From a virus, in IMG/VR virus record IMGVR_UViG_3300025018_001404, positions 13,644 through 77,643 of that record: a stretch of DNA of 64,000 nt, one strand, 5' to 3'. Positions 3,175 to 64,000 of this stretch are shown here, piece by piece. Numbering within the stretch: the first letter of the stretch is position 1; every line of letters begins with the position of its first letter. The notes below the pieces were generated by a model that made no database searches, had not been told where the DNA came from, and saw nothing but the letters and a program-made list of their open reading frames with translations. The translations under genes and the position numbers were made by a program.

Positions 3175-3251
3175 GCCTAGACAAGTCTTTTACTAACAGC
3201 GTATTGTAACGCTAACAACAGCAGTGTTAGTAACACTCCTATAAGGATCAG

Positions 3252-4352: not shown

Positions 4353-4361
4353 AGGAAGAAT

Positions 4362-48474: not shown

Positions 48475-48491
48475 GCGGCCCTATATAAGTA

Positions 48492-48939: not shown

Positions 48940-48940
48940 A

Positions 48941-49756: not shown

Positions 49757-49757
49757 A

Positions 49758-50610: not shown

Positions 50611-50677
50611 TTGCCACAGACCTTAAACATACGCATACTGGTCAAACCCGCCCTTGAAGTTAGAATCCTCTCTGATT

Positions 50678-51447: not shown

Positions 51448-51886
51448 GGTCGCCTCCCAGAAGGGCGCGGGCATACAGGTCTGCAAATATCGACAGTCGC
51501 GCCATATCCTCGATAACGGCCAGCGCCGCATCAACCTGCTTCTTGGGCATCCCGCCGTTGCTGCACGTTCTCAGGTAACCCTTGGCCGCACCCAGAACAG
51601 CAGCATCGACTGCCGCGTGGCCCAGCTTTCGCCTGTCAAACCAAGCGTCCAAGACTGACCGTTCGTCCGCAACAGCCTCCCGCAGCCGCTCTATCTCCCC
51701 CACAGCATCCAGGAGGCTGGCGGCGATGGCTTGCGCAGATCGGACATCAGCAACCGGACGGCGCGCGGTCCATGCGTAGATGTTCCACTCCTTGGCCCAA
51801 TCCGGTTCGCGCATCCAGTTGTAAACGGCATCCATCGCCTTGCGCGCCGCTTCGGCCAGCCGCTTGCCGTTCTCTAGGTCATACAC
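51434..51886 (-). CDS. Hypothetical protein
   Basis: Helical; LLDAVGEIERLR; RBS AAGGAG. Confidence 0.6.
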   Translation of the reverse strand: MYDLENGKRLAEAARKAMDAVYNWMREPDWAKEWNIYAWTARRPVADVRSAQAIAASLLDAVGEIERLREAVADERSVLDAWFDRRKLGHAAVDAAVLGAAKGYLRTCSNGGMPKKQVDAALAVIEDMARLSIFADLYARALLGGDHDNG

Positions 51887-52218
51887 TGGGCGTCTCCTTC
51901 GTTCTCAGGATAGCGATGGTCAGGGCGCGGGCGGCGGTGGGGGCGGTGCCGCGGCAGACCTTGAGGTTTTTGGTGAGCGACCACTTCCAGCCTTTCTCAG
52001 ACTCCATGACATCCAAGGTCGTCCACCCTTCCAGAACAAGCCGCAGCGCGTCGTCTACGGAGGTGAGGGGCTTGGGTTTTTTCGCTAATCGACCACTTGC
52101 CGGAAACATAAAGGTGCGGCTGGCCACGCACGGGCTTGCCTTCCCACCCCAGCGCCCGCAGCACCTCGGCGTTGTCGCCGTCCCCGGCCTGGATACGGGT
52201 GATTAGGCTATCGGTCAT
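51879..52218 (-). pseudogene. Frameshifted hypothetical gene
   Basis: N-part (LITRIQAG..NAEVLRALGW) and C-part (TSVDDALRLV.EGW...TAARALTIAILR) lie in different frames but read like one phage protein type. Confidence 0.45.
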
Positions 52219-52225
52219 GGCCTCT

Positions 52226-52546
52226 TCAGGCATTAGCCTTCTCCTGTATTCGCTTCAACACAGTGGGGTTCCACATCGTTTTTCCAGCCTGGGCGCGTTT
52301 GATGCTCTGCTTTACGGACTTCGAAACCTGGTGCGGAATCGACTTCTGGACGGGGACAGCATGGGTTGAATCACCATACTCTGCCGCTAGTCTGGGGTCG
52401 ATCCTGCCCTGGTCCAAAGAGACGCCTAGTTCAGCACAGGCCTTGAGGAACTTCTGCTTGTGCGCGCCTGACTTGAAGTGCCTGGCATACGAGAGCGTGT
52501 TACGGCTGTCCTGCATCAGGGGATCGCCTTCGTGAGATTGCCGCAC
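52226..52546 (-). CDS. Hypothetical basic protein
   Basis: ORF in operon; true start probably 52516. Confidence 0.55.
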   Translation of the reverse strand: MRQSHEGDPLMQDSRNTLSYARHFKSGAHKQKFLKACAELGVSLDQGRIDPRLAAEYGDSTHAVPVQKSIPHQVSKSVKQSIKRAQAGKTMWNPTVLKRIQEKANA

Positions 52547-52701
52547 TCGGACGGATTATTACCCTTCTCAATGCAGACCTTCACAAGTTCCGACTTGGTC
52601 CCGGAGGTAACCACAGTACAGCCGACGAACCCGGTCATAATTAGCACGCTGCTCGCGGCAATGATGAAAACAGTCTTCAATTCCATATCGTCCATGATCA
52701 A
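52516..52701 (-). CDS. Small membrane protein
   Basis: TM segment followed by C...G..P.EC. Confidence 0.6.
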
Positions 52702-52964
52702 CCCTCCAACGCAGACATATACAGGTCAAGCAGAGCCTCAAGTTCCTGGCGGTCACTGCGCTCCATCTTCCGCAGCTTCAGCACGGCCCGCATGATCTTG
52801 GGATCGAAGCCGTTGCCTTTCGCCTCAGCAAAGACATCCCTGATATCGTCAGCGAGGTTCTTCTTCTCTTCCTCAAGGCGCTCGATACGCTCGATCAGGG
52901 AGCGCAACTGGTCAGCGGCAATACCACCAACAGAATTGTGGCCAACTCCAGGTTCTTCAGACAT
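52698..52964 (-). CDS. gapR: GapR-family nucleoid-associated protein (DUF2312)
   Basis: [44 protein letters not shown]. Confidence 0.92.
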
Positions 52965-53136
52965 CACTTTCTCCGTAGCAAATTGATAAAGGTTAAAAGC
53001 ATGATCGGACCCCAGCACAGGACAGTCAAAAGGTAGTACAGGGGTAGGTTGATCGGGCTTTGGTAGTGCATGACTTCACGAACCTGAAACTCAGTGATCA
53101 GGACACCGATCAACAGATAAATGATGATTCCTGTGA

Positions 53137-54498
53137 TCATGCGGCTTCTTCCTCTGAGGGAAGGCCAAACCGGGCACGGATGTCCGCAGCGTACTCATCT
53201 TCACGCTCGATCAGGATACAGCCGAAACCTTCGTTCAGCGCAGCCTGACCAGTCGTGCCAGAACCTGCGAACGGGTCCAGAATAGTGCCACCTGGAGGCG
53301 TGATCGCACGGCAAAGATGTTGCATGAGAGCAACAGGCTTCACCGTAGGGTGCTTGCTACCGCCACGGTCAGTCTTATTGGCTTTCGGGTGGTACAGGAG
53401 AGACTTGGTATCCGGGGGAAAGCAGTTGAAGAACCTCGCAGCGGAACCTGAGTCACTCCGCTTGGCAAAAGGGACTCGGCCAGCGAATTTCCCGTAAATC
53501 TCGTCGGTAACCTCAGACGGTTCATCTCCGGTGACACGGCTTCCACCTTTTCCACTTGGGAAACAGGCTAGGACTTCCTCAGAGCCGTCATGCACAACAT
53601 TCGCAGGCCAACGCCCGCCTTCATGCGGAGACTTCTCGATTTCCTTAGCCTCACCTTCCGTGAAGAACTTAACGGAACCTAATCCCGTAGCGGTGTGGGC
53701 GATCCACGGCTCTCCAGGAACCCGGCAAGCATCGATATTCACAGCGCCTGTCCCGAACTTCAGGACATTGGCGAAACCGGTTTTCTCAGCCATAGGCTTC
53801 TGCGCCATGTAGATCGGTTCCATCGCAGGCTTGAACGACTGAGTCCCATAGAACCAACCATCCCACTGCTTCGCTTCTTCCGTCGCCGGGGCCGTTAAAA
53901 GATGGTAGGCTTCGCGTTTCGCGTCGTCATGCATCCAAGGTCTATCGAACCCTTCTGTAGCGCCTTTGAAGTCAAGGTGGCCCTTCGTATCCCGGCCTAC
54001 AAACTGCTCATGCCCGGGCTTCACCCCCACGACTTCTCGTTCTACACCTGCCGCTTTGTCTAAGCCCTTGGAAACACTAGTAGCTTTCGGAAAACCACTC
54101 CCGAACACCCAGGCATGGAAAGGGTGCATGATGAACCCTGCCTGCTCCATGGCCACAGCTTGCCAATGACCGGTACGAGCCGACGAGAATGCGAAGACAT
54201 AGCCACCAGGTTTCAGCACCTGCAGCACAAGCGACCAGAACTCAGGGTCGAACGCAATCCGGGTGCCATCATCCTCAGCACCGTCCCACGTCTTGCCCAT
54301 GAAACCCTTGGACTGGCGGCTGAACCGGCCATCCGTACCTTCTTTCGCGGGAGCAGAGTTGGCCTTGCCAAAACGCTTCACCACTGACTCCAGGAAGTAC
54401 GGAGGGTCTGTCACAACGGAGTCGACTTCGACACCCATCATAATGAGATCGCGCAGAACTTCGCGGTTATCCTGGTGGAACAGTGTGACTTCCGGCAA
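53137..54498 (-). CDS. N6-adenine/N4-cytosine DNA methyltransferase (beta-class motif order)
   Basis: VTDPPY near N-terminus; GRWPAN; HPTVKP; LDPFAGSGTTG. Confidence 0.9.
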   Translation of the reverse strand: MPEVTLFHQDNREVLRDLIMMGVEVDSVVTDPPYFLESVVKRFGKANSAPAKEGTDGRFSRQSKGFMGKTWDGAEDDGTRIAFDPEFWSLVLQVLKPGGYVFAFSSARTGHWQAVAMEQAGFIMHPFHAWVFGSGFPKATSVSKGLDKAAGVEREVVGVKPGHEQFVGRDTKGHLDFKGATEGFDRPWMHDDAKREAYHLLTAPATEEAKQWDGWFYGTQSFKPAMEPIYMAQKPMAEKTGFANVLKFGTGAVNIDACRVPGEPWIAHTATGLGSVKFFTEGEAKEIEKSPHEGGRWPANVVHDGSEEVLACFPSGKGGSRVTGDEPSEVTDEIYGKFAGRVPFAKRSDSGSAARFFNCFPPDTKSLLYHPKANKTDRGGSKHPTVKPVALMQHLCRAITPPGGTILDPFAGSGTTGQAALNEGFGCILIEREDEYAADIRARFGLPSEEEAA

Positions 54499-54548
54499 GG
54501 CGACTCTCCAACTTCAGTTTCCCCGCATCGGGTACTGATTACCTATTC

Positions 54549-54577
54549 AGGATATGAAAGATTGCCGTCTATGTCAA
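54549..54577 (-). promoter_or_regulatory. Early/middle promoter for the MTase operon
   Basis: TTGACA-tagacGGCAAtctttca-TATCCT. Confidence 0.75.
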
Positions 54578-54891
54578 TCAGAAAGTTCGTATTCGAATGG
54601 GATCGCCAGAACATCCTTGGGGATTGATCCTACTGGCATATTTGCCAACTCAAAAATGTAATGAAGGTCATCGCTCGGGAATTTAAACCACATTCTGGCG
54701 GCTCTGACTGCGCTTTTATGCTCAGGCATGTCAGTGGTGCCTGTATCCCCAACGGCATCGAACACAGCCCTGGCGACAACCTCGCGGAACAATTCTTCGT
54801 AGCAGCTATCCGGGGGAGGGGCCTTACGGAACTGCTCCTGCACGACACGAGGGATCACAGGTGCCTTGGTAATACGGCTGGCGAGAGACAC
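54574..54891 (-). CDS. Hypothetical protein
   Basis: LF..VV.RAV.D...A..WF...D...I.ELA helical pattern. Confidence 0.6.
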   Translation of the reverse strand: MSLASRITKAPVIPRVVQEQFRKAPPPDSCYEELFREVVARAVFDAVGDTGTTDMPEHKSAVRAARMWFKFPSDDLHYIFELANMPVGSIPKDVLAIPFEYELSD

Positions 54892-54894
54892 CCC

Positions 54895-55086
54895 CTATCC
54901 CTTCATGGGCATGGGAGTCGACTCTTCCCCCTTTTCTTGCGAAGGACGTTCCATAACGATGAACAACCATGTCAAGTGCTCACCCGTAGGCTCGCAAGTG
55001 TGAAGTCTATACCCTTGAGAAGCGCCGCTGGCGATAAACGCTGCAGCCTCGTCAACAAACATTCGTCTCGTAATGTACTCAAACAT
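54895..55086 (-). CDS. Hypothetical protein
   Basis: 63 aa overlapping spoVR stop. Confidence 0.55.
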   Translation of the reverse strand: MFEYITRRMFVDEAAAFIASGASQGYRLHTCEPTGEHLTWLFIVMERPSQEKGEESTPMPMKG

Positions 55087-56545
55087 GTAACTCTACCGAT
55101 TCTTGCAATCCAATAGACCCTATTACCACAGGATACCCCCAAAGTCTTTCAAATTGTGCAATTGTTCTTTCTTTTTTACGCTGTTGCAAGTTGATATTAT
55201 TGTACGCGGTATGTCGGAGGTGGAGAGTTCTCTTCCCCTTCCAGTCCACATCTACAACCTGGATATCCGGGAACATGGTGCCGATCCGTTTTGAGTCAGA
55301 CAGCGCCTCCCTGATCTGGCGGAAACCGCGATCATCGTGAATACGGTCAACCTCATACTCGGTAGGATACTGAGCGTCGTCATCGAGCAGGAACATCCGT
55401 TCCTTCCGCATCAGGGCAGGGGACAGGTACTGCGATATAAACGACTCATCTCTGTAGTTCTTGAAGGCGTGGTGCCAGGCCTGCAGCCAATCCGTTCCCG
55501 CCAAGTCAGGAAACCAGGATTCATCTTCCTTGGTCGGCTCCTGGCAAATCCGCTTGATCTCCGCGAACGTATTAAAGCCCAACCAGTACGGATTAAAGCG
55601 CATGGTCATGGGGTGCTGGTGGACAACTCCCGTATGCGAATGCAGGAACTCCAGGTAGGAGCCGTCAGTAATGAGACCCTTTTCATGAAGTCTAGTCATG
55701 ATGAAGTGGTGAGTCGTGCTAGCCCAACCTTCGTTCATGACCTGTGTCTGGTAGTTCGGATAGTAATAGGTAGCGATCTTGCGGACGATTCGGATGATTT
55801 CACGCTCCCACACTTCAAGATCAGGCGCGTTCTTCTCGATAAAGTAGAGGATGTTTTCCTCAGGCTCCATCAGTTTCTCATCTTCTTCATGTGAATACAT
55901 TGTATGCGGGATCAAGTTATCCCAGAGGGGATTGACCTGACGCTGTTTATCTTCCTCATCCTGCTTCTTCCTGGCCTTGACTTCAACCTTTGTCGGCTTC
56001 GGCGGGCGCTTGTACCTGTCAACACCGTAGTATTTCAGCGCATGAGCCGCGTCCAGGATAGACTCCACGGCGTCCAGTCCATACCTGACTTCACAGTCAT
56101 TGATGTAGTTACGAGCATAGACAAGATAGTCTATGATAGAACTGGCGTCAGTCCATTCCTTGAACAGGTAATTGGACGAGAAGAAACTATTGTGGCCATA
56201 AGAAGCATGGGCAATGACAAGGGCCTGCATCGTCGGAGAATTACTCTCCATTAGATAGGCGATACAGGGATTAGAGTTGAAAACTACTTCATATGCCAAC
56301 CCGCCCCCGCGTCTGTACTGGTTTTCTTCCTGAAGGAAAGCTTTGCCAAACGACCAATGCTTGTAGCCTACCGGCAGCCCACCCGCGTAGATGTCCAACA
56401 TCTGCTCATGGGTGATGACTTCGATCTGGTTCGGGTACGTCTCCAGCTTCAGCTCGTCATGCGCGATCTCTGCACACGCCTGGTCGATCTCATTCAGGAG
56501 CGGGAAGGTCCAGTTGTCCGTCCGCTCGAAAAGGGGTTTAACCAT
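55079..56545 (-). CDS. spoVR: SpoVR/YcgB family protein
   Basis: YPNQIEVI..EQM.D.Y, Y.HWSFGK.F, GLAYE.V.NSNPCIAYLME.N, AHASYGHNSFF, TQVMNEGWA, RDESFISQYLSP; TGATG-coupled to yeaH. Confidence 0.93.
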   Translation of the reverse strand: MVKPLFERTDNWTFPLLNEIDQACAEIAHDELKLETYPNQIEVITHEQMLDIYAGGLPVGYKHWSFGKAFLQEENQYRRGGGLAYEVVFNSNPCIAYLMESNSPTMQALVIAHASYGHNSFFSSNYLFKEWTDASSIIDYLVYARNYINDCEVRYGLDAVESILDAAHALKYYGVDRYKRPPKPTKVEVKARKKQDEEDKQRQVNPLWDNLIPHTMYSHEEDEKLMEPEENILYFIEKNAPDLEVWEREIIRIVRKIATYYYPNYQTQVMNEGWASTTHHFIMTRLHEKGLITDGSYLEFLHSHTGVVHQHPMTMRFNPYWLGFNTFAEIKRICQEPTKEDESWFPDLAGTDWLQAWHHAFKNYRDESFISQYLSPALMRKERMFLLDDDAQYPTEYEVDRIHDDRGFRQIREALSDSKRIGTMFPDIQVVDVDWKGKRTLHLRHTAYNNINLQQRKKERTIAQFERLWGYPVVIGSIGLQESVELHV

Positions 56546-57819
56546 CACGCAGACTCCTTCTGAAACAGCTTCCGGAACACCGGCCAAATTTCCTTCTCAT
56601 TCCTGGCCACAGCAATCGCCAGGTTCTCGAATTCGGACAGCATCGGCCCCAGCATCTTCATCAACTCACTACCCCCCGAACTCGGTACCGGTGCCCCAAA
56701 TATACCGTACACCAGGCTCATGTCAGGGTGCCTCGGGATATCCAAGTACGTCATGTACTGGACCTTTGGCATGATGCGCCTCAGACTTTCCAGGCTCTCT
56801 TCCTTATCACCCTGCCCACCGGTATCGCCGTCACTGCACTGGCAGAGGTAGAGGTTATAATCGGAGGATGGATAACGCTGCATCGCTTCCTCAGCAACCT
56901 TGTACCCGGCGCTTACAGTAGTTCCACCAGTCTCCTGCCCATAAAAGAACTCGCGCTCGGTGCATTCATAAGCATAAGAGTGATACCGTATGAACACGAT
57001 CTCAACCGTGGCATACCGCTTGTGAAGAAGCAAGTACAGCAACAAGAAGAATCGTTTAGCGATGTCCTTTTCACGCTCGCCCATACTGCCACTAACGTCC
57101 ATCAAGCAGATCATTACTGCTTTCTGGTTGGGCTTTGGCTGCTGAATATAATTCTTGTACCTCAGATCAACTTTATCAATGAACGGGATTCCTTTTCGGC
57201 GGCTGCGAGCACGCTCAAGCAGAGCCAGGACTTCCGGGTCTTGAGTTTCGTTCCACTCATCCTCCAGTTCCTCGATCTCATGCGGTTTGGGCCTGTGGAG
57301 GGCAAGGCGGCGTCCCAGGGCACGCTTGAAGGTCTGCGCTATGGAGAGGTTAGACGGGTTGCCTACAGGCGTGTAGCCCGCCCGTGACGGCCTGGTCTCG
57401 ACGTTCTCCCGCAGCTTCTTGTCCACAAGGTTCGGCAGTTCCAGGTCCTCGAAGAAAAAGTCCAGGAACTCATCCCGAGTCAGGGTGAAAACGAATTCAT
57501 CCTCGCCGTCACCATCGCCTGATCCGACACCGCCACCTGACTGCATCGGCTTCCTGATCGTGTCACCTTCGACAAAATCCTTATTGCCAGGGACAACAAT
57601 CTTGCGCTTACCGGTGCTGTAGTCATGCTCGAATGTCGGTTCATCGATCCCTTTCACAGGAACCTTGACCCTCTTCTGACTGATATCCGCGATTCCCATG
57701 TCACCAACAGCACCACGGACGGCCTTCTTGACGTGCTCCTTAGCCCTGCGGATGAACCTCTGGCGGCTACCCAGGGACTTGTCTTTAGGGTTAGCGCGGC
57801 GGTCGATGACAACAGACAT
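56545..57819 (-). CDS. yeaH: YeaH/YhbH (DUF444) vWA-domain protein
   Basis: IDRR.N.K.KS..RQRF, FFEDLELPNL, AVMICLMDVSGSM (MIDAS), FFY..ETGGT.VS, SDGD. Confidence 0.93.
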   Translation of the reverse strand: MSVVIDRRANPKDKSLGSRQRFIRRAKEHVKKAVRGAVGDMGIADISQKRVKVPVKGIDEPTFEHDYSTGKRKIVVPGNKDFVEGDTIRKPMQSGGGVGSGDGDGEDEFVFTLTRDEFLDFFFEDLELPNLVDKKLRENVETRPSRAGYTPVGNPSNLSIAQTFKRALGRRLALHRPKPHEIEELEDEWNETQDPEVLALLERARSRRKGIPFIDKVDLRYKNYIQQPKPNQKAVMICLMDVSGSMGEREKDIAKRFFLLLYLLLHKRYATVEIVFIRYHSYAYECTEREFFYGQETGGTTVSAGYKVAEEAMQRYPSSDYNLYLCQCSDGDTGGQGDKEESLESLRRIMPKVQYMTYLDIPRHPDMSLVYGIFGAPVPSSGGSELMKMLGPMLSEFENLAIAVARNEKEIWPVFRKLFQKESA

Positions 57820-57821
57820 TC

Positions 57822-57932
57822 CTATTCGACCCTTCTGAAACACTGCACAAGCACAAACAGCACAACACCCATGAAAAACGTGATGACAGCGAACTCAAGT
57901 ACACCCACCAACACGTTCAACATACCTACCAT
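57822..57932 (-). CDS. 36-aa single-TM peptide
   Basis: MVGMLNVLVGVLEFAVITFFMGVVLFVLVQCFRRVE. Confidence 0.5.
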   Translation of the reverse strand: MVGMLNVLVGVLEFAVITFFMGVVLFVLVQCFRRVE

Positions 57933-58021
57933 ACCTTCCAATAGCACCTAGCGATAAGCCAAATCAGCGCAGCGAATGCCCCTGCACCAAGTAGAAAAGA
58001 GAAAGCTATTACATATACCAC
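57926..58021 (-). CDS. 31-aa single-TM peptide
   Basis: (M)VYVIAFSFLLGAGAFAALIWLIARCYWKVW, starts right after the prkA stop. Confidence 0.45.
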   Translation of the reverse strand: MVYVIAFSFLLGAGAFAALIWLIARCYWKVW

Positions 58022-58022
58022 G

Positions 58023-59987
58023 TTATGAACTCTTTTGCACGCGCATGTAATACTCAACAACTCTCTGAGTCTGTCGCGGAGTGTATCCTTTTTCTTTCAT
58101 CCTGGCGATGAAAGCGTTATGCTTCTTGTCATCTTCCTTAGTCTTCTTTGAACCAAAGGAAATGATCGGCAACATTTCATCAAGAGTAGAGAACATCTTT
58201 TTCTCGATGGTCTCTTTGATCTTGTTGTACGCCTTCCAATCGGGAATTTTCCCACCATTGTTGGCCCTTTGGCGCAGGGTCCACTTCACGACTTCATTGC
58301 GGAAGTCCTTGGGATTGGCGATACCAGCAGCCTTCTCGACGCCGGACAGGTCAGCATCCAGTGCGGCGCGGTCCAGGATCGTCCCGGTGTTCAAATCCTT
58401 GTAGTTGTTCTGGTCCAACCAGGCCTCGGCATAGGCGACGTATTTTTCGAAAATAGTCTGGCCGTAGTCATCGGCGTTTTCCAGGTAAGCACTGCGAATC
58501 TCATTACCGATGAACTCGATATACCGGCCCGCGATATCAACCTTGACGAACTCCAACAGGTTTTCGGCTTCCTCGTCACTGAACTGTTCCGCCACGATAC
58601 GGTTTATCAGCACGTCCATCAGGTGAACCGGATCGGCCCCGACCTCAGTGTCATGGTTGAACGTGTCACTGAGAACCTTGAAGCAGAACCGAGTCGAAAT
58701 GCCGGTCATCCCCTCATCGACACCAGCGGCGTCACGGTACTCCTGCATCGACCGAACCTTGGGGTCAACATCCCGGATGTTCTCGCCGTTGTAGAGGCGC
58801 TGCTTCGAGTGCAGGGATGAGTTTTCATGCTCTTTCAGACGCGACAACACGGCGAACTCGGCAAGCATCGGCAACGTCTTCGGCGCACACGGAGCCGCCG
58901 CCAAAGAGGATACAGACAGCATCTTCTTGTAGATCGCCTCTTCCTCATCCGACTGCAGGCAGTAGGGCACCTTGATCACACAGACACGGTCCAGGAACGC
59001 CTCGTTATTCTTGTCGGACTTGAACTTGATCCACTCAGTAAGATTCGAGTGAGCAAGGATAACGCCCTGGTACGGGATCGCACTCAAAGCCTCGGAACCG
59101 ACATAGTTGCCTTCCTGAGTCGCGGTCAGGAGGGGGTGCAGCACCTTGATCGGTGCCTTGAACATCTCGACAAACTCAAGCAGGCCCTGAGTCGTGCGGT
59201 TGAGACCACCACTGAAACTGTAGGCATCAGGGTCGTTTTGAGAAAAACTCTCAAGCATCCGCAGATCGGTCTTGCCAACAAGCGTAGTGATATCTTGGTT
59301 GTTGTCGTCACCCGGCTCAGTCTTCATCACACAGACCTGGCGCAGCTTCGACGGCTTCATCTTGACGACACGGAACTTGGAGAGATCACCCTTGGCGGCG
59401 TCCAGGCGCTTCACAGCCCATGGAGAAAGCAGGCCAGTCAAGTAGCGCGGCTCGATGCCGTATTCGTCCTGCAGAGCCTTGCCGTGGCGCTCAGGGTTGA
59501 ACAGGCCCAGGGGCGACTCGAATACCGGAGAGGTTTCAATCTGGGTCTCGTCATGAATCTCATGTTCGACATAGGCCAGCACATAGACATGGTGGACTTC
59601 CATCAGGGACTTCAGCCGTTCAGCGATGCTCGACTTGGCGGAACCAACCGGACCCAGGAGATAGAGAACCTGCTTCTTCTCTTCGAGTCCCTGAGCGGCG
59701 TGCTGGAAGAACCCAACCAACTTTTCGATGCTGTTCTCGATGCCATAGAAATCATGGAAAGCATCGTAAACCTTGATCGTCCGGTTCTGGTGGATGATGG
59801 AGAGCCGGGGATCATTCGAGGTATCAACCAGCCGGGGTTCACCAATGGCGGCAACCATGCGCTCGGCGGCACTGGCGTAGGCGAGGTGATCGGCCTTGCA
59901 CATCTCCAAGTATTCTTGGATTGTCATGCTTTCCGGCTGTTCTTCCCGGTAGCTGGCACTGAATTGCTCGATGAAATCCATACCCAT
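58023..59987 (-). CDS. prkA: PrkA/YeaG family AAA+ protein
   Basis: AQGLEEKKQVLYLLGPVGSAKSS, KTEPGD.NNQDI, QGLLEFVEMFKAPIKVLHPLLTATQEGNY, NNEAFLDR, KDFRNEVV. Confidence 0.95.
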   Translation of the reverse strand: MGMDFIEQFSASYREEQPESMTIQEYLEMCKADHLAYASAAERMVAAIGEPRLVDTSNDPRLSIIHQNRTIKVYDAFHDFYGIENSIEKLVGFFQHAAQGLEEKKQVLYLLGPVGSAKSSIAERLKSLMEVHHVYVLAYVEHEIHDETQIETSPVFESPLGLFNPERHGKALQDEYGIEPRYLTGLLSPWAVKRLDAAKGDLSKFRVVKMKPSKLRQVCVMKTEPGDDNNQDITTLVGKTDLRMLESFSQNDPDAYSFSGGLNRTTQGLLEFVEMFKAPIKVLHPLLTATQEGNYVGSEALSAIPYQGVILAHSNLTEWIKFKSDKNNEAFLDRVCVIKVPYCLQSDEEEAIYKKMLSVSSLAAAPCAPKTLPMLAEFAVLSRLKEHENSSLHSKQRLYNGENIRDVDPKVRSMQEYRDAAGVDEGMTGISTRFCFKVLSDTFNHDTEVGADPVHLMDVLINRIVAEQFSDEEAENLLEFVKVDIAGRYIEFIGNEIRSAYLENADDYGQTIFEKYVAYAEAWLDQNNYKDLNTGTILDRAALDADLSGVEKAAGIANPKDFRNEVVKWTLRQRANNGGKIPDWKAYNKIKETIEKKMFSTLDEMLPIISFGSKKTKEDDKKHNAFIARMKEKGYTPRQTQRVVEYYMRVQKSS

Positions 59988-60018
59988 TTTCGACCTCTTT
60001 CCTGAATTCCCCTAAAGG

Positions 60019-60034
60019 TTACACTCTATGTCAA
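60019..60034 (-). promoter_or_regulatory. Conserved promoter/operator motif upstream of prkA
   Basis: TTGACATAGAGTGTAA; -10 poorly matched. Confidence 0.55.
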
Positions 60035-60049
60035 CGGATGGCAAACGAA

Positions 60050-60346
60050 TTATTTCTTTGCAGGGACAATCTGTCCGCAACACGGGCACTTGGATGTCGG
60101 GTGCTTCAGCATGTAGTCAATCGTACGCTTGCAAACCTTCAGACAGGCGTCAATCTGATCCTCAGAGGCGTTAGCGAGTCCCCGCTCCAGATTGCCAAAA
60201 CCATACCGTTCGCCAAGCGCGCCCATGGCGCTAAATGTAGCCATACTGCCCATGTAGACCGAATTAATGCTATCCTGACCAGACCGATAAGACAGGGCTG
60301 CACGGATAAGGTCACGCTTTTGCTCAATGTCCATCTCAACCTCCAA
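60050..60346 (-). CDS. Hypothetical protein with C-terminal CPCC
   Basis: Early-region ORF. Confidence 0.6.
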   Translation of the reverse strand: MEVEMDIEQKRDLIRAALSYRSGQDSINSVYMGSMATFSAMGALGERYGFGNLERGLANASEDQIDACLKVCKRTIDYMLKHPTSKCPCCGQIVPAKK

Positions 60347-60409
60347 ACGCTTTCACCAGGAACATCAGAAAGAACAAGCCTGCACCCGTCGCCACGGTTT
60401 CAATCGCGT

Positions 60410-60571
60410 TCATGAGATACCTTTACCTTTCGCCGCTGCAATCACTTCTCTGGCACGCACTAAGGCAGGATGCACAACCGGGTCATCATCCCAAGCGTCA
60501 TCAAAACCGGCTAACAACTCCTCCAGTTCTATGAGAGACCGGAGCAGCCTTGACTCAATCGTTCTAGGCAT
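60410..60571 (-). CDS. Hypothetical protein
   Basis: LL..L.EL...RAREVIAAAKG motif; RBS GAGGA. Confidence 0.55.
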   Translation of the reverse strand: MPRTIESRLLRSLIELEELLAGFDDAWDDDPVVHPALVRAREVIAAAKGKGIS

Positions 60572-60965
60572 CGACCTGTTCCTCTTCTGACTCAAAGGCG
60601 TGTCCGCACTGCACCAGGGCAAAGCCCCTTTCAATGCAACCAGTGAACTGGACGAAATCAGCCTCTACAGTCGTCGCCTTGCAACCATGATGCATGTTAA
60701 CACTGCCTCGAATATCAGCACCGAAGGAAGGCTCAAGCCTTTTCTCCGACACCCAATGCCCAAGGAAGGCACTATGGGGGCTACGGTCACCATCGATGTC
60801 AATATGGCAATCGACACCACGCAGGCTGAGGGTCATCCGGATAAGGCGCGGCCTGTAGATTGACTCTTCCCGATGCACCGCGACTCCGATTGCCGACACG
60901 GCTTCAGCGAGCATATCCGCCATTCTGGCGCGGTCAGGCTTCCTCTTTATGCTTAGTTCAGTCAT
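60564..60965 (-). CDS. Hypothetical protein
   Basis: Start MTELSI after AAGGA. Confidence 0.6.
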   Translation of the reverse strand: MTELSIKRKPDRARMADMLAEAVSAIGVAVHREESIYRPRLIRMTLSLRGVDCHIDIDGDRSPHSAFLGHWVSEKRLEPSFGADIRGSVNMHHGCKATTVEADFVQFTGCIERGFALVQCGHAFESEEEQVDA

Positions 60966-61050
60966 CACTGATTCCTTTACAGTAGAATCCAAAGCAACAC
61001 CCCACCCCAGGCAGCCACAGCAAACGCGATACCGCCTATCATCCCCCAAT

Positions 61051-61407
61051 TCATTCTTCTACGCCCTCCAACTCTTCCAGAAACTCATATTCCGGCTCAA
61101 CATCGATATGCTGGTTCAGGTATTCTTCCCCATCGCCTAGCAAATCCTCTTCTTCACCAACGATCCAGAAACCATCCTGCAACTTGATCTGCGCCAACAG
61201 GTAGAGGTTGTCAGCCCAATCCTCCCCATAGACTTCCTGGGCCAGCAAGCGCAAGCAATCCATAGTCAGGGAAGAGGGATCAGGCTGCGGGAACATGTAG
61301 CCGTAGCGTTCCACGGCATAGCGCCCCAGGCAAGCATGAGCATTAGCGTGTATCTCGCTGGCACTGCCAATGCAGGCACCTTGAAGCAAGACAAGGTAGT
61401 GTTTCAT
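61051..61407 (-). CDS. Hypothetical acidic protein
   Basis: 118 aa with very acidic C-terminus. Confidence 0.6.
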   Translation of the reverse strand: MKHYLVLLQGACIGSASEIHANAHACLGRYAVERYGYMFPQPDPSSLTMDCLRLLAQEVYGEDWADNLYLLAQIKLQDGFWIVGEEEDLLGDGEEYLNQHIDVEPEYEFLEELEGVEE

Positions 61408-61416
61408 GTCAGTTTC

Positions 61417-61704
61417 CTACGATGTGCGCCATATTCTCACGCCTTTAACCCCGTTTTCTACGACTGTTTTACCCGTGAACTTCAGACCATGGGCACGCCC
61501 GTAAGCCTTCGCCGCCGAATGTGCAGCCCCCTGGCCCGCCGTTCCCTTCCTTGCTGTCACCTGCCCAGGAGCAAAGAACGAGTCTCCAACCTTCATCCTA
61601 TCGAATGGGTATTTCAGCTTTGGTTTGGCGGTAACCGGATGGTCATCCTGCACTTTGAAGTTAACCGGGAAGGGAACATTTTTGTCTATTTTAAAGTCGG
61701 CCAT
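61417..61704 (-). CDS. Putative DNA-binding phage protein
   Basis: FKIDKNVP.P...KYPF..M.VGDSF...GVRIWR pattern. Confidence 0.7.
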   Translation of the reverse strand: MADFKIDKNVPFPVNFKVQDDHPVTAKPKLKYPFDRMKVGDSFFAPGQVTARKGTAGQGAAHSAAKAYGRAHGLKFTGKTVVENGVKGVRIWRTS

Positions 61705-61709
61705 GGGTG

Positions 61710-62078
61710 CTAACCACGGACCTTGGCGCGCTCGATGGATGCGTTTGCATCCGCAATAAAGTTCTCAAGCGAGTCAGGTTTAATACCCTCTACATAGCGC
61801 ACACCGTATCCTGCTAGTAGAGCATAGACTGACTCAACGCCGTCAACCCTCGCTAGGGTGTTTGCTACCATAAGTGCATCCCTTCGGAGTTTCCCAACCC
61901 TATCAGGTGTTAGACGAACATTGGTGGCAACCGCCCTCCAGGCGTCCTGAGCAGCACTAAGGCGCTTCAAGGCATCCTTTATGCTGGCACCGTCATTCCG
62001 AGTCGTAGCCATGGCAAAATTCAAGGCCGCAGCGTCTAGCTCTTCCCCAGCGCGAATCAGTTCGTCCATGCCCATCAC
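61710..62078 (-). CDS. Hypothetical protein
   Basis: Early-region ORF. Confidence 0.55.
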   Translation of the reverse strand: MMGMDELIRAGEELDAAALNFAMATTRNDGASIKDALKRLSAAQDAWRAVATNVRLTPDRVGKLRRDALMVANTLARVDGVESVYALLAGYGVRYVEGIKPDSLENFIADANASIERAKVRG

Positions 62079-62261
62079 TCAATCCCTCTGAAATCTTGGG
62101 TGAACCTTGTACTCAACAAAGATGCGAGTCCCTGTCTCAGTCTTGACCTTGACGCGCCCGTCATTTGTGTACCCGGTAACCGTGCCCTTGACTATCTCAG
62201 GCCAACCCTTCACACGTAGGGACACGTAGACCGCTGCACCTGGAAGAAACCGCCCCATCAC
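62079..62261 (-). CDS. Hypothetical SH3/KOW-like small protein
   Basis: F.PG..V...GTVTG...RVKV beta-rich pattern. Confidence 0.5.
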   Translation of the reverse strand: MMGRFLPGAAVYVSLRVKGWPEIVKGTVTGYTNDGRVKVKTETGTRIFVEYKVHPRFQRD

Positions 62262-62473
62262 TCGGATTCCCTACTGGCGACACGCTCAACAAAGGCGTGG
62301 AAATACCGGCCACGACTGCCATTGGCGTTCTTTGGCTTCTGGTAGCCGTAGGCGTCCGCTTCCGCGATCAGTGCCTCTACCTGAGAGGATGACAACTCGT
62401 GATAGCCTGAACCCTTCGGCACCTTGCACCGCTGCAGGATATCGTGGGCGGCGTGTCTGTTCATCCTGGCCAT
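62258..62473 (-). CDS. Hypothetical phage protein
   Basis: L.S.QV..L...AD..GY.KPKNANGSRGRYF. Confidence 0.6.
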   Translation of the reverse strand: MARMNRHAAHDILQRCKVPKGSGYHELSSSQVEALIAEADAYGYQKPKNANGSRGRYFHAFVERVASRESE

Positions 62474-62628
62474 TATTCCGACTCCCCTTTGACCTTGGCT
62501 ATAAGGGTGCGGGCGCGGTCTCGCTTTTCCTGGCCGTAGCTACGCATCCCGGTAGCTGGTGCAGCGGCATCGGCAACCGTAAGCACATCCTCTAGCGCCG
62601 CCAGTAACTCGTATTCAAGATCAGTCAT
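62473..62628 (-). CDS. Hypothetical protein
   Basis: ELLAALE...AR..IAK.KGE motif. Confidence 0.55.
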   Translation of the reverse strand: MTDLEYELLAALEDVLTVADAAAPATGMRSYGQEKRDRARTLIAKVKGESE

Positions 62629-62878
62629 CTTCGGACTCCTCAACCGTGATGTAAAACGGCCCACTCCAGTCCTTTACCCAGGCAGGGGCGTTCTCCAAAT
62701 CCCGCAACACATCGGACTCGTAGCTATCAGAAACTAACGCATCCTCGCGGGCTTCAGGAGTCAGGGACGCCAGAAACTCGGTTACATCCCATTCGGCCTC
62801 GCCTTCCAATTCCACTTCTATGGCGTAGTCATTAACCCAGGCTTGCGGCGTGAAGGTGGCAATGTACCTATTCATCAC
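62621..62878 (-). CDS. Hypothetical acidic protein
   Basis: F.PQAW.NDYA.E...W.GPF.I. Confidence 0.6.
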   Translation of the reverse strand: MMNRYIATFTPQAWVNDYAIEVELEGEAEWDVTEFLASLTPEAREDALVSDSYESDVLRDLENAPAWVKDWSGPFYITVEESEDD

Positions 62879-63408
62879 TCAGACTCCACCGTAGGTTCCC
62901 CGTCAGGGTACTCTTCCTCGCACGGAGGCTCATAATCAGCCATAGCCTGTTCATACTCGGACTCAGTGCTGCCGACTTCATGGAACCAGGAGAACACGTC
63001 ATCAGCTACGGTTCCGGTTACATCGATGCACGCGCCGTCGAACCAATCCATAAACCAATATTCAGCACGGTAGCATGACCGGCCAGCATCGTGGCTGTAA
63101 AACCTGATTTCATCCGAAGGTCCACCCCATGACATCTGATAGCGGAAATATCCCTCTTCCTGGTCAGTGAACGTGTAGGGCGCAACGTAGTCAAAAGACA
63201 GGGCGTAGGATGAGAAGGCCTCGCTCATCAATTCTTGAATCTCATCCCGGTTGCCTAGGGCATACTGATAATCAATACCCTGTTCCGTCCAGAACGTTAT
63301 CAGTTCATCGTCGCTGCAGTAGCGGTGACTCAGCATGGCTTTTAGATCAGCCTCGCGGCTTGCCCACTGAGAGGCAACATGATCAGCACACTTGGTTTGT
63401 TCAGTCAT
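62875..63408 (-). CDS. Hypothetical acidic phage protein (SWGGPSDE motif)
   Basis: L.FDYV...TF.DQ..GYFRYQ.SWGGPSDE.RFY...Y.F.DWFDGA; RBS GGAG. Confidence 0.7.
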   Translation of the reverse strand: MTEQTKCADHVASQWASREADLKAMLSHRYCSDDELITFWTEQGIDYQYALGNRDEIQELMSEAFSSYALSFDYVAPYTFTDQEEGYFRYQMSWGGPSDEIRFYSHDAGRSCYRAEYWFMDWFDGACIDVTGTVADDVFSWFHEVGSTESEYEQAMADYEPPCEEEYPDGEPTVESE

Positions 63409-63436
63409 TCGACTCACTCCGTTGTTTCTAGCAACC

Positions 63437-63465
63437 AATCTACGATAAGTTGCACTCTATGTCAA
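63437..63465 (-). promoter_or_regulatory. Early promoter
   Basis: TTGACA-tagagTGCAActtatcg-TAGATT. Confidence 0.8.
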
Positions 63466-63472
63466 CAATCCT

Positions 63473-63700
63473 TTAAGCCGGAACCACATAGGAGAAGCAC
63501 GGCAACAAACTGGCTTTGCACCACTTCAATTCCCGCGCCTCCAATGCCCTGGCACGGCGTTCCGCATTCTCCAGGCTACTATGCCGACTCACTGGTTCCG
63601 CCGTTGGATAGTCACGGGAAATGGCAGACTCGTGGCCGTAGATGAATCGCTTTTCATGGTCCAAGCCTCTAGGGCAATCCTCATACACTGCGTAGGCCAT
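63473..63700 (-). CDS. Hypothetical protein
   Basis: RBS GGAG; TAATG-coupled to the upstream gene. Confidence 0.55.
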   Translation of the reverse strand: MAYAVYEDCPRGLDHEKRFIYGHESAISRDYPTAEPVSRHSSLENAERRARALEARELKWCKASLLPCFSYVVPA

Positions 63701-63999: not shown

Positions 64000-64000
64000 G

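What the first reader, a model, noticed from the sequence alone, without database searches (positions are those of the whole stretch)
55079..60034. Complete, intact prkA-yeaH-spoVR (AAA+ / vWA / SpoVR) operon built into the phage early region
Seen: three full-length genes totalling about 5 kb, in the bacterial order. yeaH and spoVR are TGATG-coupled. Walker A (GPVGSAKS), the MIDAS motif (DVSGS) and the SpoVR H..YGH / NEG residues are retained. A copy of the phage's own TTGACATAGA motif lies directly upstream. Known: YeaG/PrkA, YeaH/YhbH and YcgB/SpoVR are co-occurring bacterial stationary-phase, nitrogen-starvation and sporulation proteins whose mechanism is unresolved; AAA+ ATPases commonly work with vWA adaptors. 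Inference: the phage has domesticated this triad as an early protein-remodelling or degradation machine (AAA+ motor, vWA adaptor, SpoVR as a possible metal-dependent effector). It could act on starved or dormant hosts or disable a defence. This is the best candidate for an uncharacterised system in the window.
Basis: partly seen in the sequence, partly recalled or inferred. Interest (0 to 1): 0.78.

Follow-up and report, generated by a model that had tools for sequence, protein, structure and literature searches.

The report
Phage-borne PrkA-YeaH-SpoVR starvation module
A complete 78-kb groundwater phage carries its own intact copy of a bacterial three-gene module recently tied to starvation-induced protein breakdown, a cargo already seen in many other phages but never studied in one.

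Summary
Three full-length minus-strand genes lie at 58023-59987 (prkA), 56545-57819 (yeaH) and 55079-56545 (spoVR). They sit behind one of five exact TTGACATAGA copies in a complete 77.6-kb siphovirus-like phage from aquifer metagenomes. The region is not a chimera: one independent contig spans it, a second sample holds it, and its codon usage matches the phage.

The trio is not new to phages. It occurs in Ralstonia jumbo phage RsoM2USA, in huge uncultured phages and in at least 214 IMG/VR contigs, and this scan found it before on other DNA.

What I add:
- The window's copies form a long-branch lineage outside the sampled bacteria.
- The Walker A is not canonical (GPVGSAKS). The Gly-Gly to x-Ala/Ser change arose about five times in viral copies and was not found in the bacteria searched.
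- The SpoVR model has a zincin-peptidase-like fold, but with HAxxGH in place of HExxH.
- YeaH is a vWA/MIDAS protein whose N-terminal arm is predicted to grip SpoVR (0.81; best control 0.00).

Best reading (about 0.45): an early-expressed, phage-tuned copy of the YeaG/SpdA bulk-proteolysis module that recycles host protein in nutrient-poor hosts. It is a new member of a known kind.

The parts
60025..60034 (-). TTGACATAGA promoter-like motif (consensus -35 TTGACA plus a conserved extension), 37 nt upstream of the prkA ATG. An AGGAAAGAGG ribosome site lies in between.
   Evidence: It is one of 5 exact copies in the genome, all on the minus strand and all in gaps ahead of minus-strand gene blocks. 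The shared extension is TTGACATAGANKGYAA. The -10 at this copy is weak (GGGAAT at 17 nt), so promoter function is inferred.
58023..59987 (-). prkA (yeaG/spdA-like): an AAA+ ATPase with a PrkA C-terminal domain, 654 aa. The Walker A is GPVGSAKS (residues 112-119).
   Evidence: It keeps 252 of the 280 alignment columns that are at least 95% conserved. K118 is kept. G116S and G117A are the only departures in the P-loop stretch examined (residues 109-123).
57822..58060 (-). 203-nt prkA-yeaH spacer holding two small hydrophobic ORFs (57926-58060, 44 aa; 57822-57947, 41 aa, which ends 2 nt before the yeaH ATG). Their reality is uncertain.
   Evidence: ORF list; the RNA fold is no better than shuffles (z 0.15); no homologs in 165 other loci.
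56545..57819 (-). yeaH (DUF444), 424 aa: a conserved basic N-terminal arm, a Gly-rich linker and a C-terminal vWA domain with a complete MIDAS (D241, S243, S245, T300, D330).
   Evidence: The model has pLDDT 79.2. Foldseek gives 337 PDB matches at E<=0.001, and the listed rows are vWA or integrin I-type domains. It keeps 74 of 79 highly conserved columns.
55079..56545 (-). spoVR (ycgB-like), 488 aa, with its start overlapping the yeaH stop (TGATG). The N-terminal roughly 390 residues model as a zincin-like fold with an invariant HAxxGH on helix 104-124. A small alpha/beta C-terminal domain follows.
   Evidence: The model has pLDDT 87.2 and pTM 0.83. VIA-align top Z is 13.2, and 43 of the 50 rows are zinc metallopeptidases by title. 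It keeps 121 of 129 highly conserved columns.
54895..55086 (-). orf63, a small ORF whose ATG overlaps the end of spoVR (ATGTTTGA). Probably co-transcribed. No known family.
   Evidence: No PHROG hit. No homolog beside the trio in other loci.
54574..54891 (-). orf105, the last ORF of the unit. Its stop overlaps the next TTGACATAGA copy.
   Evidence: No PHROG or Pfam hit. No homolog in other loci.
54568..54577 (-). Next TTGACATAGA copy, ahead of the DNA methyltransferase gene (53137-54498). It marks the downstream limit of the prkA unit.
   Evidence: TTGACA-17-TATCCT; methyltransferase.

Best explanation
The phage encodes its own, fully adapted copy of the bacterial YeaG(SpdA/PrkA)-YeaH-YcgB(SpoVR) module. 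It transcribes the module from a phage promoter together with its replication and nucleotide-metabolism genes.

Proposed assembly:
- PrkA is the ATP-driven AAA+ motor.
- YeaH is an adaptor. Its N-terminal arm holds SpoVR, and its vWA/MIDAS domain stays free for the motor or for clients.
- SpoVR is a zincin-fold metal-binding effector.

Proposed effect: during infection of nutrient-poor groundwater hosts, the module switches on bulk turnover or remodelling of host cytoplasmic protein without waiting for the host's RpoS starvation signal. This supplies amino acids and energy for phage synthesis.

Shown here: the genes, their intactness, the phage context, the folds, and a predicted YeaH-SpoVR interface.

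Inferred: the timing of expression, proteolysis as the output, which subunit cuts, and the benefit to the phage.
For: Genes are intact and constrained. All three are full-length family matches. They keep 252 of 280, 74 of 79 and 121 of 129 highly conserved columns.

True phage cargo.
- The record is a 77,643-bp virus genome, CheckV 100%. Its ends overlap by 141 nt.
- Portal, capsid, tape measure, terminase, DNA polymerase, RNR, ThyA and related genes are present.
- One Logan contig of 15,520 bp spans window 48321-63840 at an even depth of 62.9. A second sample covers 29 of 30 bins.
- Codon usage of the trio correlates with the rest of the genome at 0.89, against a mean of 0.78 for 15 other long genes.
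- The best bacterial PrkA identity is 64%.

Phage control. One of 5 exact motif copies lies directly upstream.

The module travels as a unit in phages. Of 165 foreign loci, 140 hold all three in the same order. One IMG/VR clade is monophyletic in all three trees, with supports 100, 99 and 100. Its flanks look like phage DNA.

Function from the literature.
- E. coli yeaG deletion abolishes starvation-induced, largely non-specific cytoplasmic proteolysis (PMC13684143, abstract and passages).
- yeaG, yeaH and ycgB are cofit in six bacteria (10.1101/072470, passages).
- The Walker A Lys is needed for PrkA function (PMC9512850, passages).
- Pure PrkA alone has no protease activity (PMC13001217, passages), which leaves room for a partner peptidase.

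Folds. SpoVR is zincin-like and YeaH is vWA.

Predicted YeaH-SpoVR binding. Score 0.81, best of 3 controls 0.00. The mark was reached by 58 of 80 solved complexes and 2 of 110 mismatched pairs. The runs agree in at least 88% of contacts, and partner pLDDT is at least 80. No sequence relative of YeaH or SpoVR was found among PDB chains, so a pass from memory of a solved complex is unlikely.
Against: - No expression data exist for this phage.
- The -10 of the prkA promoter copy is weak, and the consensus scan did not list this site.
- SpoVR lacks the catalytic Glu of HExxH: Ala114 is invariant in 85 of 85 sequences. Foldseek found no match at E<=0.001. Z values of 8-13 can arise for helical models by common arrangement (note). 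SpoVR may therefore be a pseudo-peptidase.
- B. subtilis SpoVR crosslinks to RNA (PMC12456014, passages).
- The PNAS study tested yeaG only. In the passages I read it did not show that YeaH or YcgB take part, nor that YeaG is itself the protease.
- The P-loop Gly-to-Ala change and R345Q (Arg in 273 of 281) could weaken the ATPase.
- Phenotypes of the bacterial module differ between species (10.1101/072470).
- The host is unknown.
Confidence: 0.45

Rival explanations
1. Regulatory takeover rather than bulk degradation. The phage trio acts as a signalling or remodelling switch on a few host targets, such as stress-response or dormancy regulators or ribosome hibernation. This would keep a starving or dormant host metabolically competent, or push it into a state that suits the phage.
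For: The bacterial module was proposed as a conserved signalling pathway with species-specific phenotypes (10.1101/072470, passages). B. anthracis PrkA affects transcription of sporulation genes and osmotic stress survival without detectable protease or kinase activity (PMC13001217, passages). Viromics papers read spoVR as a host-state gene (PMC8940887, passages). The free vWA/MIDAS domain suggests specific client binding.
Against: No target is known. The only direct physiological read-out in a Gram-negative is bulk proteolysis (PMC13684143). The kinase idea is not supported by the biochemistry in PMC9512850 or PMC13001217.
Confidence: 0.22
2. RNA- or ribosome-directed machine. SpoVR is an RNA-binding protein, and the trio remodels or dismantles ribonucleoprotein such as ribosomes. 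This would free nucleotides and amino acids for a phage that also carries RNR, ThyA and dCMP deaminase.
For: SpoVR crosslinks to RNA in vivo in B. subtilis (PMC12456014, passages). Ribosomal proteins are among the groups lost in YeaG-dependent turnover (PMC13684143, passages). SpoVR lacks the canonical catalytic Glu. The phage invests heavily in nucleotide supply.
Against: The fold matches are to peptidases, not to nucleases or RNA-binding domains. RNA binding was shown in one Gram-positive only. Nothing in this window links the trio to RNA (Rfam: 0 matches in 52000-64000).
Confidence: 0.12
3. Counter-defence or competitor exclusion. The machine removes a host defence protein or blocks superinfecting phages.
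For: It lies among ORFans of the phage's leftward arm, where takeover genes usually sit. The P-loop variant is restricted to viral copies, which hints at a phage-specific adaptation.
Against: PADLOC gave no match for 3 of 3 proteins. The trio is conserved across very different phages and habitats as a unit with 60% identity to cellular copies, which fits a housekeeping-type activity better than an arms-race gene. No defence link was found in the papers read.
Confidence: 0.08
4. Passenger or artefact. The trio is host DNA misassembled into the contig, or a recent, functionless pickup.
For: One public 'phage' record (Enterobacter phage LAU1) does start with host yeaG-yeaH beside lambdoid tail genes and lacks spoVR. 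This shows that such artefacts exist.
Against: A single contig from a second assembler spans both junctions at even depth, and a second sample holds the region. Phage-specific ORFs lie on both sides. A phage motif lies upstream. Codon usage is ameliorated. The best bacterial identity is 64%. Conserved columns are kept.
Confidence: 0.02

Closest known systems
Bacterial YeaG(SpdA/PrkA)-YeaH(YhbH, DUF444)-YcgB(SpoVR) module
   Same: The three families, gene order, lengths, MIDAS and invariant SpoVR residues are the same. All curated family cutoffs are passed.
   Different: Here it is carried by a virus. It lies behind a phage motif rather than a host stress promoter (RpoS control is stated for E. 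coli in PMC13684143). The Walker A is GPVGSAKS instead of GPVGGGKS. Identity to any sampled bacterium is 64%, 48% and 56% at best.
Phage-borne trios: Ralstonia jumbo phage RsoM2USA ORF30-29-28, huge uncultured phages (LR756502, LR745206, LR756504), IMG/VR contigs
   Same: The same three genes lie in the same order on viral DNA. PHROG families 22605, 19072 and 35217 exist for them. RsoM2USA shares the GPVGSAKS P-loop.
   Different: Those are mostly jumbo or T4-like genomes with AMG-rich flanks. This one is a 77.6-kb siphovirus whose capsid is 74.6% identical to Pseudomonas phages Epa5/Epa19/Epa43 and 73% identical to PaMx11 and Ab18. None of those phages carries PrkA: no Pseudomonas phage is among the 17 records. 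Identity to the other phage copies is only 53-63%.
FtsH/Yme1-type AAA+ zinc proteases (works-like comparison only)
   Same: Both have an AAA+ motor of the classic pore-loop clade (stated for PrkA in PMC13001217) together with a zincin-fold domain.
   Different: Here the parts are separate proteins bridged by a vWA adaptor. SpoVR has HAxxGH, not HExxH. There is no membrane anchor. Proteolysis by the complex is not shown.
MoxR-type AAA+ with vWA partners (NorQ-NorD, RavA-ViaA)
   Same: An AAA+ ATPase is encoded next to a vWA/MIDAS protein. NorD VWA-NorQ complexes are among the structural matches of YeaH (9qh6, 9qhe). An Ala before the Walker A Lys is, as I recall, usual in MoxR/RavA. That point is recalled, not tested.
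   Different: PrkA is not a MoxR-family ATPase (Pfam PF08298). The third partner, SpoVR, has no counterpart there.
M49 dipeptidyl-peptidase III zinc site HExxGH (recalled motif)
   Same: SpoVR has the same His-x4-His spacing with Gly before the second His (H113-A-S-Y-G-H118). DPP III (5zum) is among the fold matches at Z 9.6.
   Different: The catalytic Glu is an invariant Ala in SpoVR. There is no sequence-level match to any peptidase family.

Membership tests
PrkA / YeaG (SpdA) family | Full-length PrkA AAA domain plus PrkA C-terminal domain | tested here: met
   PF08298 covers residues 21-391 (E 3e-160) and PF06798 covers 394-646 (E 1.7e-59). NF011999 equivalog scores 1032.7 bits against a cutoff of 576.
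PrkA / YeaG (SpdA) family | Canonical Walker A GxxxxGK[ST] (GPVGGGKS in the family) | tested here: not met
   The window has GPVGSAKS. Column 117 is G in 270 of 281 sequences, A in 6 and S in 5. K118 and S119 are kept.
YeaH / YhbH (DUF444) | Full-length DUF444 with a vWA fold and a complete MIDAS (DxSxS, T, D) | tested here: met
   PF04285 E 1.6e-130. NF003707 scores 463.1 bits against 396. D241, S243, S245, T300 and D330 are in invariant columns. Foldseek finds the vWA fold with 337 matches at E<=0.001.
SpoVR / YcgB | SpoVR domain plus SpoVR C-terminal domain, above the curated cutoff | tested here: met
   PF04293 E 1.5e-147 and PF24755 E 4e-17. NF008737 scores 681.2 bits against a cutoff of 679, a bare pass. 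All 68 invariant columns of the 85-sequence alignment include the window by construction.
Three-gene prkA-yeaH-spoVR module | Three genes adjacent, same strand, in this order | tested here: met
   the same layout is seen in 140 of 165 other loci. Most of the rest are cut by contig ends.
Three-gene prkA-yeaH-spoVR module | The three products act together (cofitness; physical complex) | tested here: inconclusive
   Only YeaH-SpoVR was modelled: 0.81 against a best control of 0.00. This is a prediction, not a measurement. PrkA was not modelled with the others because of the size limit.
Zincin (thermolysin-like) metallopeptidases, for SpoVR | Thermolysin-like fold: a beta-sheet followed by an active-site helix and a helical lower domain | tested here: met
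   VIA-align against 48,161 chains: top Z 13.2 (3o0y), 11.6 and 11.3. By title, 43 of the 50 rows are zinc peptidases (M1, M2, M3, M4, M32, M49 and others). Caveats: the model is helical, Foldseek found nothing at E<=0.001, and no coordinates were available to check the site.
Zincin (thermolysin-like) metallopeptidases, for SpoVR | HExxH motif with the catalytic Glu | tested here: not met
   The helix carries A112-H113-A114-x-x-G117-H118, invariant in 85 of 85 sequences, with no Glu after the first His.
Starvation-induced protein degradation (SpdA-dependent) programme | Bulk cytoplasmic proteolysis depends on the YeaG homolog; RpoS-controlled expression | not testable with these tools
   Defined by physiology in PMC13684143. 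Here only homology (56% to an enterobacterial YeaG) and a non-host promoter-like motif can be shown.
Virus-encoded auxiliary (host-derived) gene | Embedded in a complete viral genome with viral genes on both sides, not at a contig end or prophage border | tested here: met
   No integrase or repressor label was seen among the 65 ORFs scanned, out of 106 ORFs called.

The most novel reading that the evidence does not exclude
Phages have repeatedly retuned this module. The Walker A Gly-Gly to Ser/Thr/Ala-Ala/Ser change arose about five times on viral branches. It is in 43 IMG/VR PrkA genes, in RsoM2USA and in the window's whole clade. No PrkA with it was found in 401 sampled Pseudomonadota genomes or in 77 bacterial loci. 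This change would mark a 'phage-type' PrkA whose ATPase cycle is freed from host starvation control.

Together with a YeaH arm that clamps a zincin-fold SpoVR, the trio would be a split, FtsH-like ATP-dependent protease. The phage fires it on demand to liquidate host protein, a viral trigger of bacterial 'autophagy'.
Probability: 0.17. Interest if true: 0.8.

Novelty: new member of a known kind. Interest (0 to 1): 0.47.

Why it matters
The YeaG/YeaH/YcgB trio is one of the most widespread bacterial modules whose biochemistry is still unsettled. In 2026 it was tied to starvation-induced bulk proteolysis.

Phage copies are natural, host-independent versions. They are compact, sit behind simple promoters, and here carry a lineage-specific P-loop change. 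A lytic-type phage from a nutrient-poor aquifer spends 5 kb of a 78-kb genome on the trio, which argues that protein recycling or host-state control is limiting for infection there.

The predicted YeaH-arm/SpoVR interface and the zincin-like but Glu-less SpoVR site give direct, cheap experiments on which subunit does the chemistry.

The presence of the trio in a phage is not new in itself.

Tried and rejected
- No RNA holder was listed among 12 runs, so expression is untested.
- The portal protein found no IMG/VR relative (11 pattern matches, 0 confirmed).
- I tried to show that the 70%-identical PrkA relatives (P0005-P0008) sit on related phages by matching contig lengths. PrkA and SpoVR hits share contig lengths 71,469, 16,753 and 23,477. 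None of the 120 listed DNA-polymerase relatives lies on a contig of those lengths.
- The metagenome scan with SpoVR gave 80 loci, none closer than 62% over a part.
- PADLOC: 0 hits for 3 of 3 proteins.
- Rfam: 0 matches in 52000-64000.
- The prkA-yeaH spacer has no special fold (z 0.15).
- Small neighbouring ORFs have no homologs in the other loci.
- Foldseek for SpoVR found nothing at E<=0.001.
- The SpoVR profile against PDB sequences gave only one chance-level row (E 1.2).
- Pfam at E<=10 gave no peptidase family for 3 SpoVR proteins.
- The PDB entries 9xip, 9xiq and 9xir ('Serine protein kinase', E 3.4e-42 to PrkA) could not be traced to a paper. The 13 papers found are all unrelated.
- One literature search was swamped by unrelated hits.
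- A bacterial donor could not be named. PrkA's nearest named bacteria are Alphaproteobacteria, while SpoVR's are Beta- and Gammaproteobacteria. The trees leave a polytomy.
- dN/dS was not computed because no DNA of close relatives could be fetched.


Full report
**What is there.** The minus strand of window 55079-60034 holds three long ORFs.
- prkA (58023-59987, 654 aa) matches the PrkA AAA domain and the PrkA C-terminal domain end to end. It scores 1032.7 bits on NCBI's PrkA equivalog model against a cutoff of 576.
- yeaH matches DUF444 end to end, and NF003707 at 463.1 bits against 396.
- spoVR matches SpoVR plus SpoVR_C, and NF008737 at 681.2 bits against 679, a bare pass.
- The longest-ORF starts are probably too early. 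yeaH most likely begins at the ATG at 57819 and spoVR at the ATG at 56545. That A is shared with the yeaH TGA, so the TGATG coupling is real.
- prkA and yeaH are 203 nt apart. The spacer has no unusual fold (z 0.15). It holds two small hydrophobic ORFs of uncertain reality.
- Two further ORFs follow spoVR: orf63, whose ATG overlaps the spoVR stop, and orf105. After them comes the next copy of the phage motif.

**The motif.** TTGACATAGA occurs exactly five times in the 77,643-bp genome, always on the minus strand.
- The copies lie ahead of the ribonucleotide reductase gene, ahead of an unnamed 264-aa ORF (42025-42819) downstream of the helicase gene, ahead of the methyltransferase gene, ahead of prkA, and ahead of a gene block near the right end.
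- The conserved part extends to TTGACATAGANKGYAA.
- Three of the five copies have a TAnnnT hexamer 17 nt downstream. The prkA copy has only GGGAAT, and the consensus scan did not list it.
- I read the motif as a sigma-70-type promoter with a phage-specific extension. That reading, and 'early' timing, are inference.

**It is a phage, and the trio belongs to it.**
- The window is bases 13644-77643 of a virus record that CheckV rates 100% complete. The first 141 bases repeat the last 141 at 97.9% identity, so the assembly closes on itself.
- PHROG scans of 65 ORFs, out of the 106 I called, name the following: terminase, portal, scaffold, major head protein, tape measure, tail proteins, endolysin, DNA polymerase, primase, helicase, exonuclease, ssDNA-binding protein, resolvase, ribonucleotide reductase, thymidylate synthase, dCMP deaminase and a DNA methyltransferase. 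None is labelled integrase or repressor.
- The capsid protein is 74.6% identical to those of Pseudomonas siphoviruses Epa5, Epa19 and Epa43, and 72-73% identical to PaMx11, Ab18 and MP1412. None of those phages appears among the 17 phage records that hold a PrkA relative.
- In the probable source run, one contig from a different assembler covers window 48321-63840 at an even depth of 62.9. A second aquifer sample covers 29 of 30 bins at about 3x with pieces at 99% identity or more.
- GC3 of the three genes (0.63-0.70) lies inside the phage's range (0.617 +/- 0.064). Their codon usage correlates with the rest of the genome at 0.89, against a mean of 0.78 for 15 other long genes.
- The best bacterial PrkA is 64% identical.

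**How common it is.** The trio is not new to phages.
- PHROGs holds families for all three, labelled 'unknown function'.
- Ralstonia jumbo phage RsoM2USA has the three genes in the same order. Its paper lists ORF30 as PrkA and ORF28 as SpoVR without further comment (PMC8504454, passages).
- Three huge uncultured phages have relatives.
- Enterobacter phage LAU1 only has host yeaG-yeaH at the start of the record, beside lambdoid tail genes, which is most likely prophage flank.
- IMG/VR holds at least 214 contigs with a PrkA relative, and the best 80 were kept.
- Of 165 foreign loci fetched, 140 hold all three genes in the same order.
- I checked the flanks of ten IMG/VR loci. Of 99 ORFs, 62 have no Pfam match. 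The rest include PhoH, phage lysozyme, three AdoMet decarboxylases, DNA ligase, a SegE-type endonuclease, T5orf172, and DnaB- and RecA-like proteins. This is phage context.
- A viromics paper names spoVR the most abundant 'sporulation' auxiliary gene in an oxygen-minimum zone (PMC8940887, passages).
- This scan has noted the trio on other phage DNA many times: 91 notes in at least 80 genomes. I treat those notes as leads. They agree with what I found independently.
- The searches 'PrkA+SpoVR+phage' (6 papers) and 'DUF444+phage' (12 papers, 9 listed) turned up no functional study of a phage copy, judging by titles and the passages I read.

**Where the window's copy sits.**
- In a FastTree of 167 PrkA rows and an IQ-TREE of 58 rows, the window groups with unnamed database proteins (support 100 in both trees). 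These are the four 70%-identical proteins P0005-P0008 in the 167-row tree, joined in the 58-row tree by P0009 (64% identical). The stem is long (0.25-0.35). The group falls outside the clade of 21-77 alphaproteobacterial sequences (support 99-100).
- Its relation to a 12-member IMG/VR clade is weak (support 80 in PrkA, 78 in YeaH).
- That IMG/VR clade is monophyletic in all three gene trees (supports 100, 99, 100), so the trio evolves as a unit in phages.
- SpoVR has closer unnamed relatives: 92% identity, and an 87% fragment. Next come 62-64% relatives whose contig lengths (71,469 and 16,753; also 23,477 at 58%) equal those of the PrkA relatives. PrkA and SpoVR therefore travel together there too.
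- I could not fetch those contigs, so I cannot say that they are phages.
- The named bacteria nearest to PrkA are Alphaproteobacteria (62-64%). Those nearest to SpoVR are Beta- and Gammaproteobacteria (53-56%). No donor can be named.
- Caveat: the bacterial sample is the 80 best matches, not a balanced one.

**Constraint.** The window keeps 252 of 280 PrkA columns that are at least 95% conserved, 74 of 79 in YeaH and 121 of 129 in SpoVR. Most PrkA departures are shared with its clade. The MIDAS residues of YeaH are intact, as are the 68 invariant SpoVR positions, among them H113, H118, E152, H168, N271-E272-G273, H279 and H304.

**A Walker A that is not canonical.**
- The family motif is GPVGGGKS, and the window has GPVGSAKS. 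Among 281 aligned sequences, the Gly before the Lys is replaced in 11: the window, P0005-P0009, IMG/VR loci L009, L037, L069 and L072, and RsoM2USA. None of the 77 bacterial loci is among them. On the tree this needs five separate changes.
- A pattern scan of IMG/VR for LLGPVGxAK found 62 stretches. Of these, 43 are PrkA genes, and 32 of those read GPVGSAKSS.
- The same pattern hit 1 of 401 sampled Pseudomonadota genomes, and that hit is not PrkA. The canonical pattern hit 12 of 61 genomes of the same phylum-wide draw.
- The variant thus looks like a recurrent feature of viral copies.
- Its effect is unknown. An Ala at this place is, as I recall, normal in MoxR-type AAA+ ATPases, so it need not kill the enzyme.
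- The window's clade also has Gln for an Arg that is conserved in 273 of 281 sequences (position 345).
- The viral and bacterial counts come from different searches and are not a strict rate.

**Folds and a predicted interface.**
- YeaH (model pLDDT 79.2) has a C-terminal vWA domain. Foldseek gives 337 PDB matches at E<=0.001. The listed rows are vWA or integrin I-type domains, including NorD bound to the AAA+ NorQ.
- SpoVR (pLDDT 87.2, pTM 0.83) has no Foldseek match at E<=0.001.
- An all-against-all structural search puts DUF885-type proteins first (Z 13.2, 11.6, 11.3). After them come M1 aminopeptidases, oligoendopeptidase F, M32 carboxypeptidases, DPP III, thermolysin, ACE and others. By title, 43 of the 50 rows are zinc metallopeptidases.
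- The tool warns that helical models reach such Z values by common arrangement. The uniformity of the list is the argument, not the score.
- The helix that should carry HExxH carries an invariant A-H-A-x-x-G-H. The spacing is that of the M49 motif HExxGH (recalled), but Ala stands in place of the catalytic Glu.
- SpoVR is therefore zincin-like in fold but fails the motif test. It may bind metal and cut with another base, or it may not be a peptidase at all.
- A two-chain prediction of YeaH with SpoVR scored 0.81, 0.79 and 0.81, against 0.00 for the best of three controls. The mark was reached by 58 of 80 solved complexes and 2 of 110 mismatched pairs. The runs agree in at least 88% of contacts, and partner pLDDT is at least 80.
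- The interface uses the conserved N-terminal arm of YeaH (residues 1-25, 58-90, 109-112), which is disordered on its own. That arm contacts the N-terminal region of SpoVR, residues 157-173 next to the His helix, and the C-terminal domain. The vWA domain is left free.
- No relative of either protein has a solved structure by sequence. The result is a prediction, not a measurement.

**What it most likely does.**
- From papers: E. coli yeaG (renamed spdA) is needed for starvation-induced, largely non-specific degradation of cytoplasmic proteins, which feeds synthesis and survival (PMC13684143, abstract and passages).
- yeaG, yeaH and ycgB are each other's best cofitness partners in six bacteria (10.1101/072470, passages).
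- B. subtilis PrkA binds and hydrolyses ATP through its Walker A Lys and was reported to cut casein slowly (PMC9512850, abstract and passages).
- Highly purified B. anthracis PrkA has no protease or kinase activity, oligomerises with ATP, and is classed with pore-loop AAA+ unfoldases (PMC13001217, passages).
- Putting these together with the folds, the simplest model is a motor (PrkA), an adaptor (YeaH) and a metal-binding effector (SpoVR). The phage makes them from its own promoter to start protein recycling or remodelling in a nutrient-poor host.
- I give this model about 0.45.
- Rivals: a narrow regulatory switch on host state (0.22); an RNA- or ribosome-directed role for SpoVR, which crosslinks to RNA in B. 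subtilis (PMC12456014, passages) (0.12); counter-defence (0.08); and an artefact or dead passenger (0.02).

**Verdict.** This is a new member of an already recorded kind, the phage-borne PrkA-YeaH-SpoVR module, in an unusually small, non-jumbo phage.

The points that may be worth a bench test are the virus-restricted P-loop variant, the Glu-less zincin-like SpoVR and the predicted YeaH-arm/SpoVR clamp.

Supplements of the papers were not opened. The SI of PMC13684143 may hold data on yeaH and ycgB that bear on the model.

Noticed in passing
window 59634-59657 (PrkA residues 112-119); also L009, L037, L069, L072, L162, L248-L309: The Walker A Gly-Gly to Ser/Thr/Ala-Ala/Ser variant recurs in viral PrkA genes. 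It occurs in 43 IMG/VR contigs, in RsoM2USA and in the window's clade, and needs 5 changes on the tree. No PrkA carrying it was found in 401 Pseudomonadota genomes or in 77 bacterial loci.
   Followed up: partly
window 57822-58060 (-): Two small hydrophobic ORFs (41 and 44 aa, each with one likely membrane helix) fill the prkA-yeaH spacer. The second ends 2 nt before the yeaH ATG.
   Followed up: partly
window 30625-31173 (-): This ORF matches PHROG 1040, 'peptidase HslV family' (E 3.7e-29), but no Pfam family. It would be a second proteolysis-related gene in the same phage arm, 25 kb from the trio.
   Followed up: partly
window 31229-31726 (-): This ORF carries the dATP/dGTP diphosphohydrolase N-terminal domain (PF18909, E 1.1e-19). 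As I recall, that domain is known from phages that modify their purines. I did not look for PurZ.
   Followed up: no
window 63800-64000 and genome 1-141: The record's ends overlap by 141 nt (97.9%) inside a tandem repeat of units like GCATAGGCGGCA. Read depth there rises to 148 against 63 elsewhere. One sample has a 12-nt unit inserted at 63844.
   Followed up: partly
window 4276-4435 (+): tRNA-Met (CAT) and tRNA-Leu (TAA) genes lie between the scaffold and head genes.
   Followed up: no
L163 (Enterobacter phage LAU1, MN688132.1) 1-3308: This public 'complete phage genome' begins with host-like yeaG-yeaH (56% identity to the window's PrkA, no spoVR) next to lambdoid tail genes. It is probably prophage flank, not phage cargo.
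   Followed up: partly
protein P0004 (827 aa, ENA contig of 3591 bp): This PrkA relative has an internal duplication of about 170 residues (residues 183-341 repeat at 359 onward). It looks like an assembly artefact rather than an insertion.
   Followed up: partly
genome 508-1320 (-), locus L247: This ORF has YdcK beta-solenoid repeats (PF18836, E 8.2e-32) and a weak bactofilin match. It lies in the arm that continues leftward past the record's end.
   Followed up: no
window 36758-39736 (-): The 992-aa family-A DNA polymerase has no relative above 50% identity among 5.8 billion proteins. The replication module is far more isolated than the capsid (74.6% identity to known phages).
   Followed up: no
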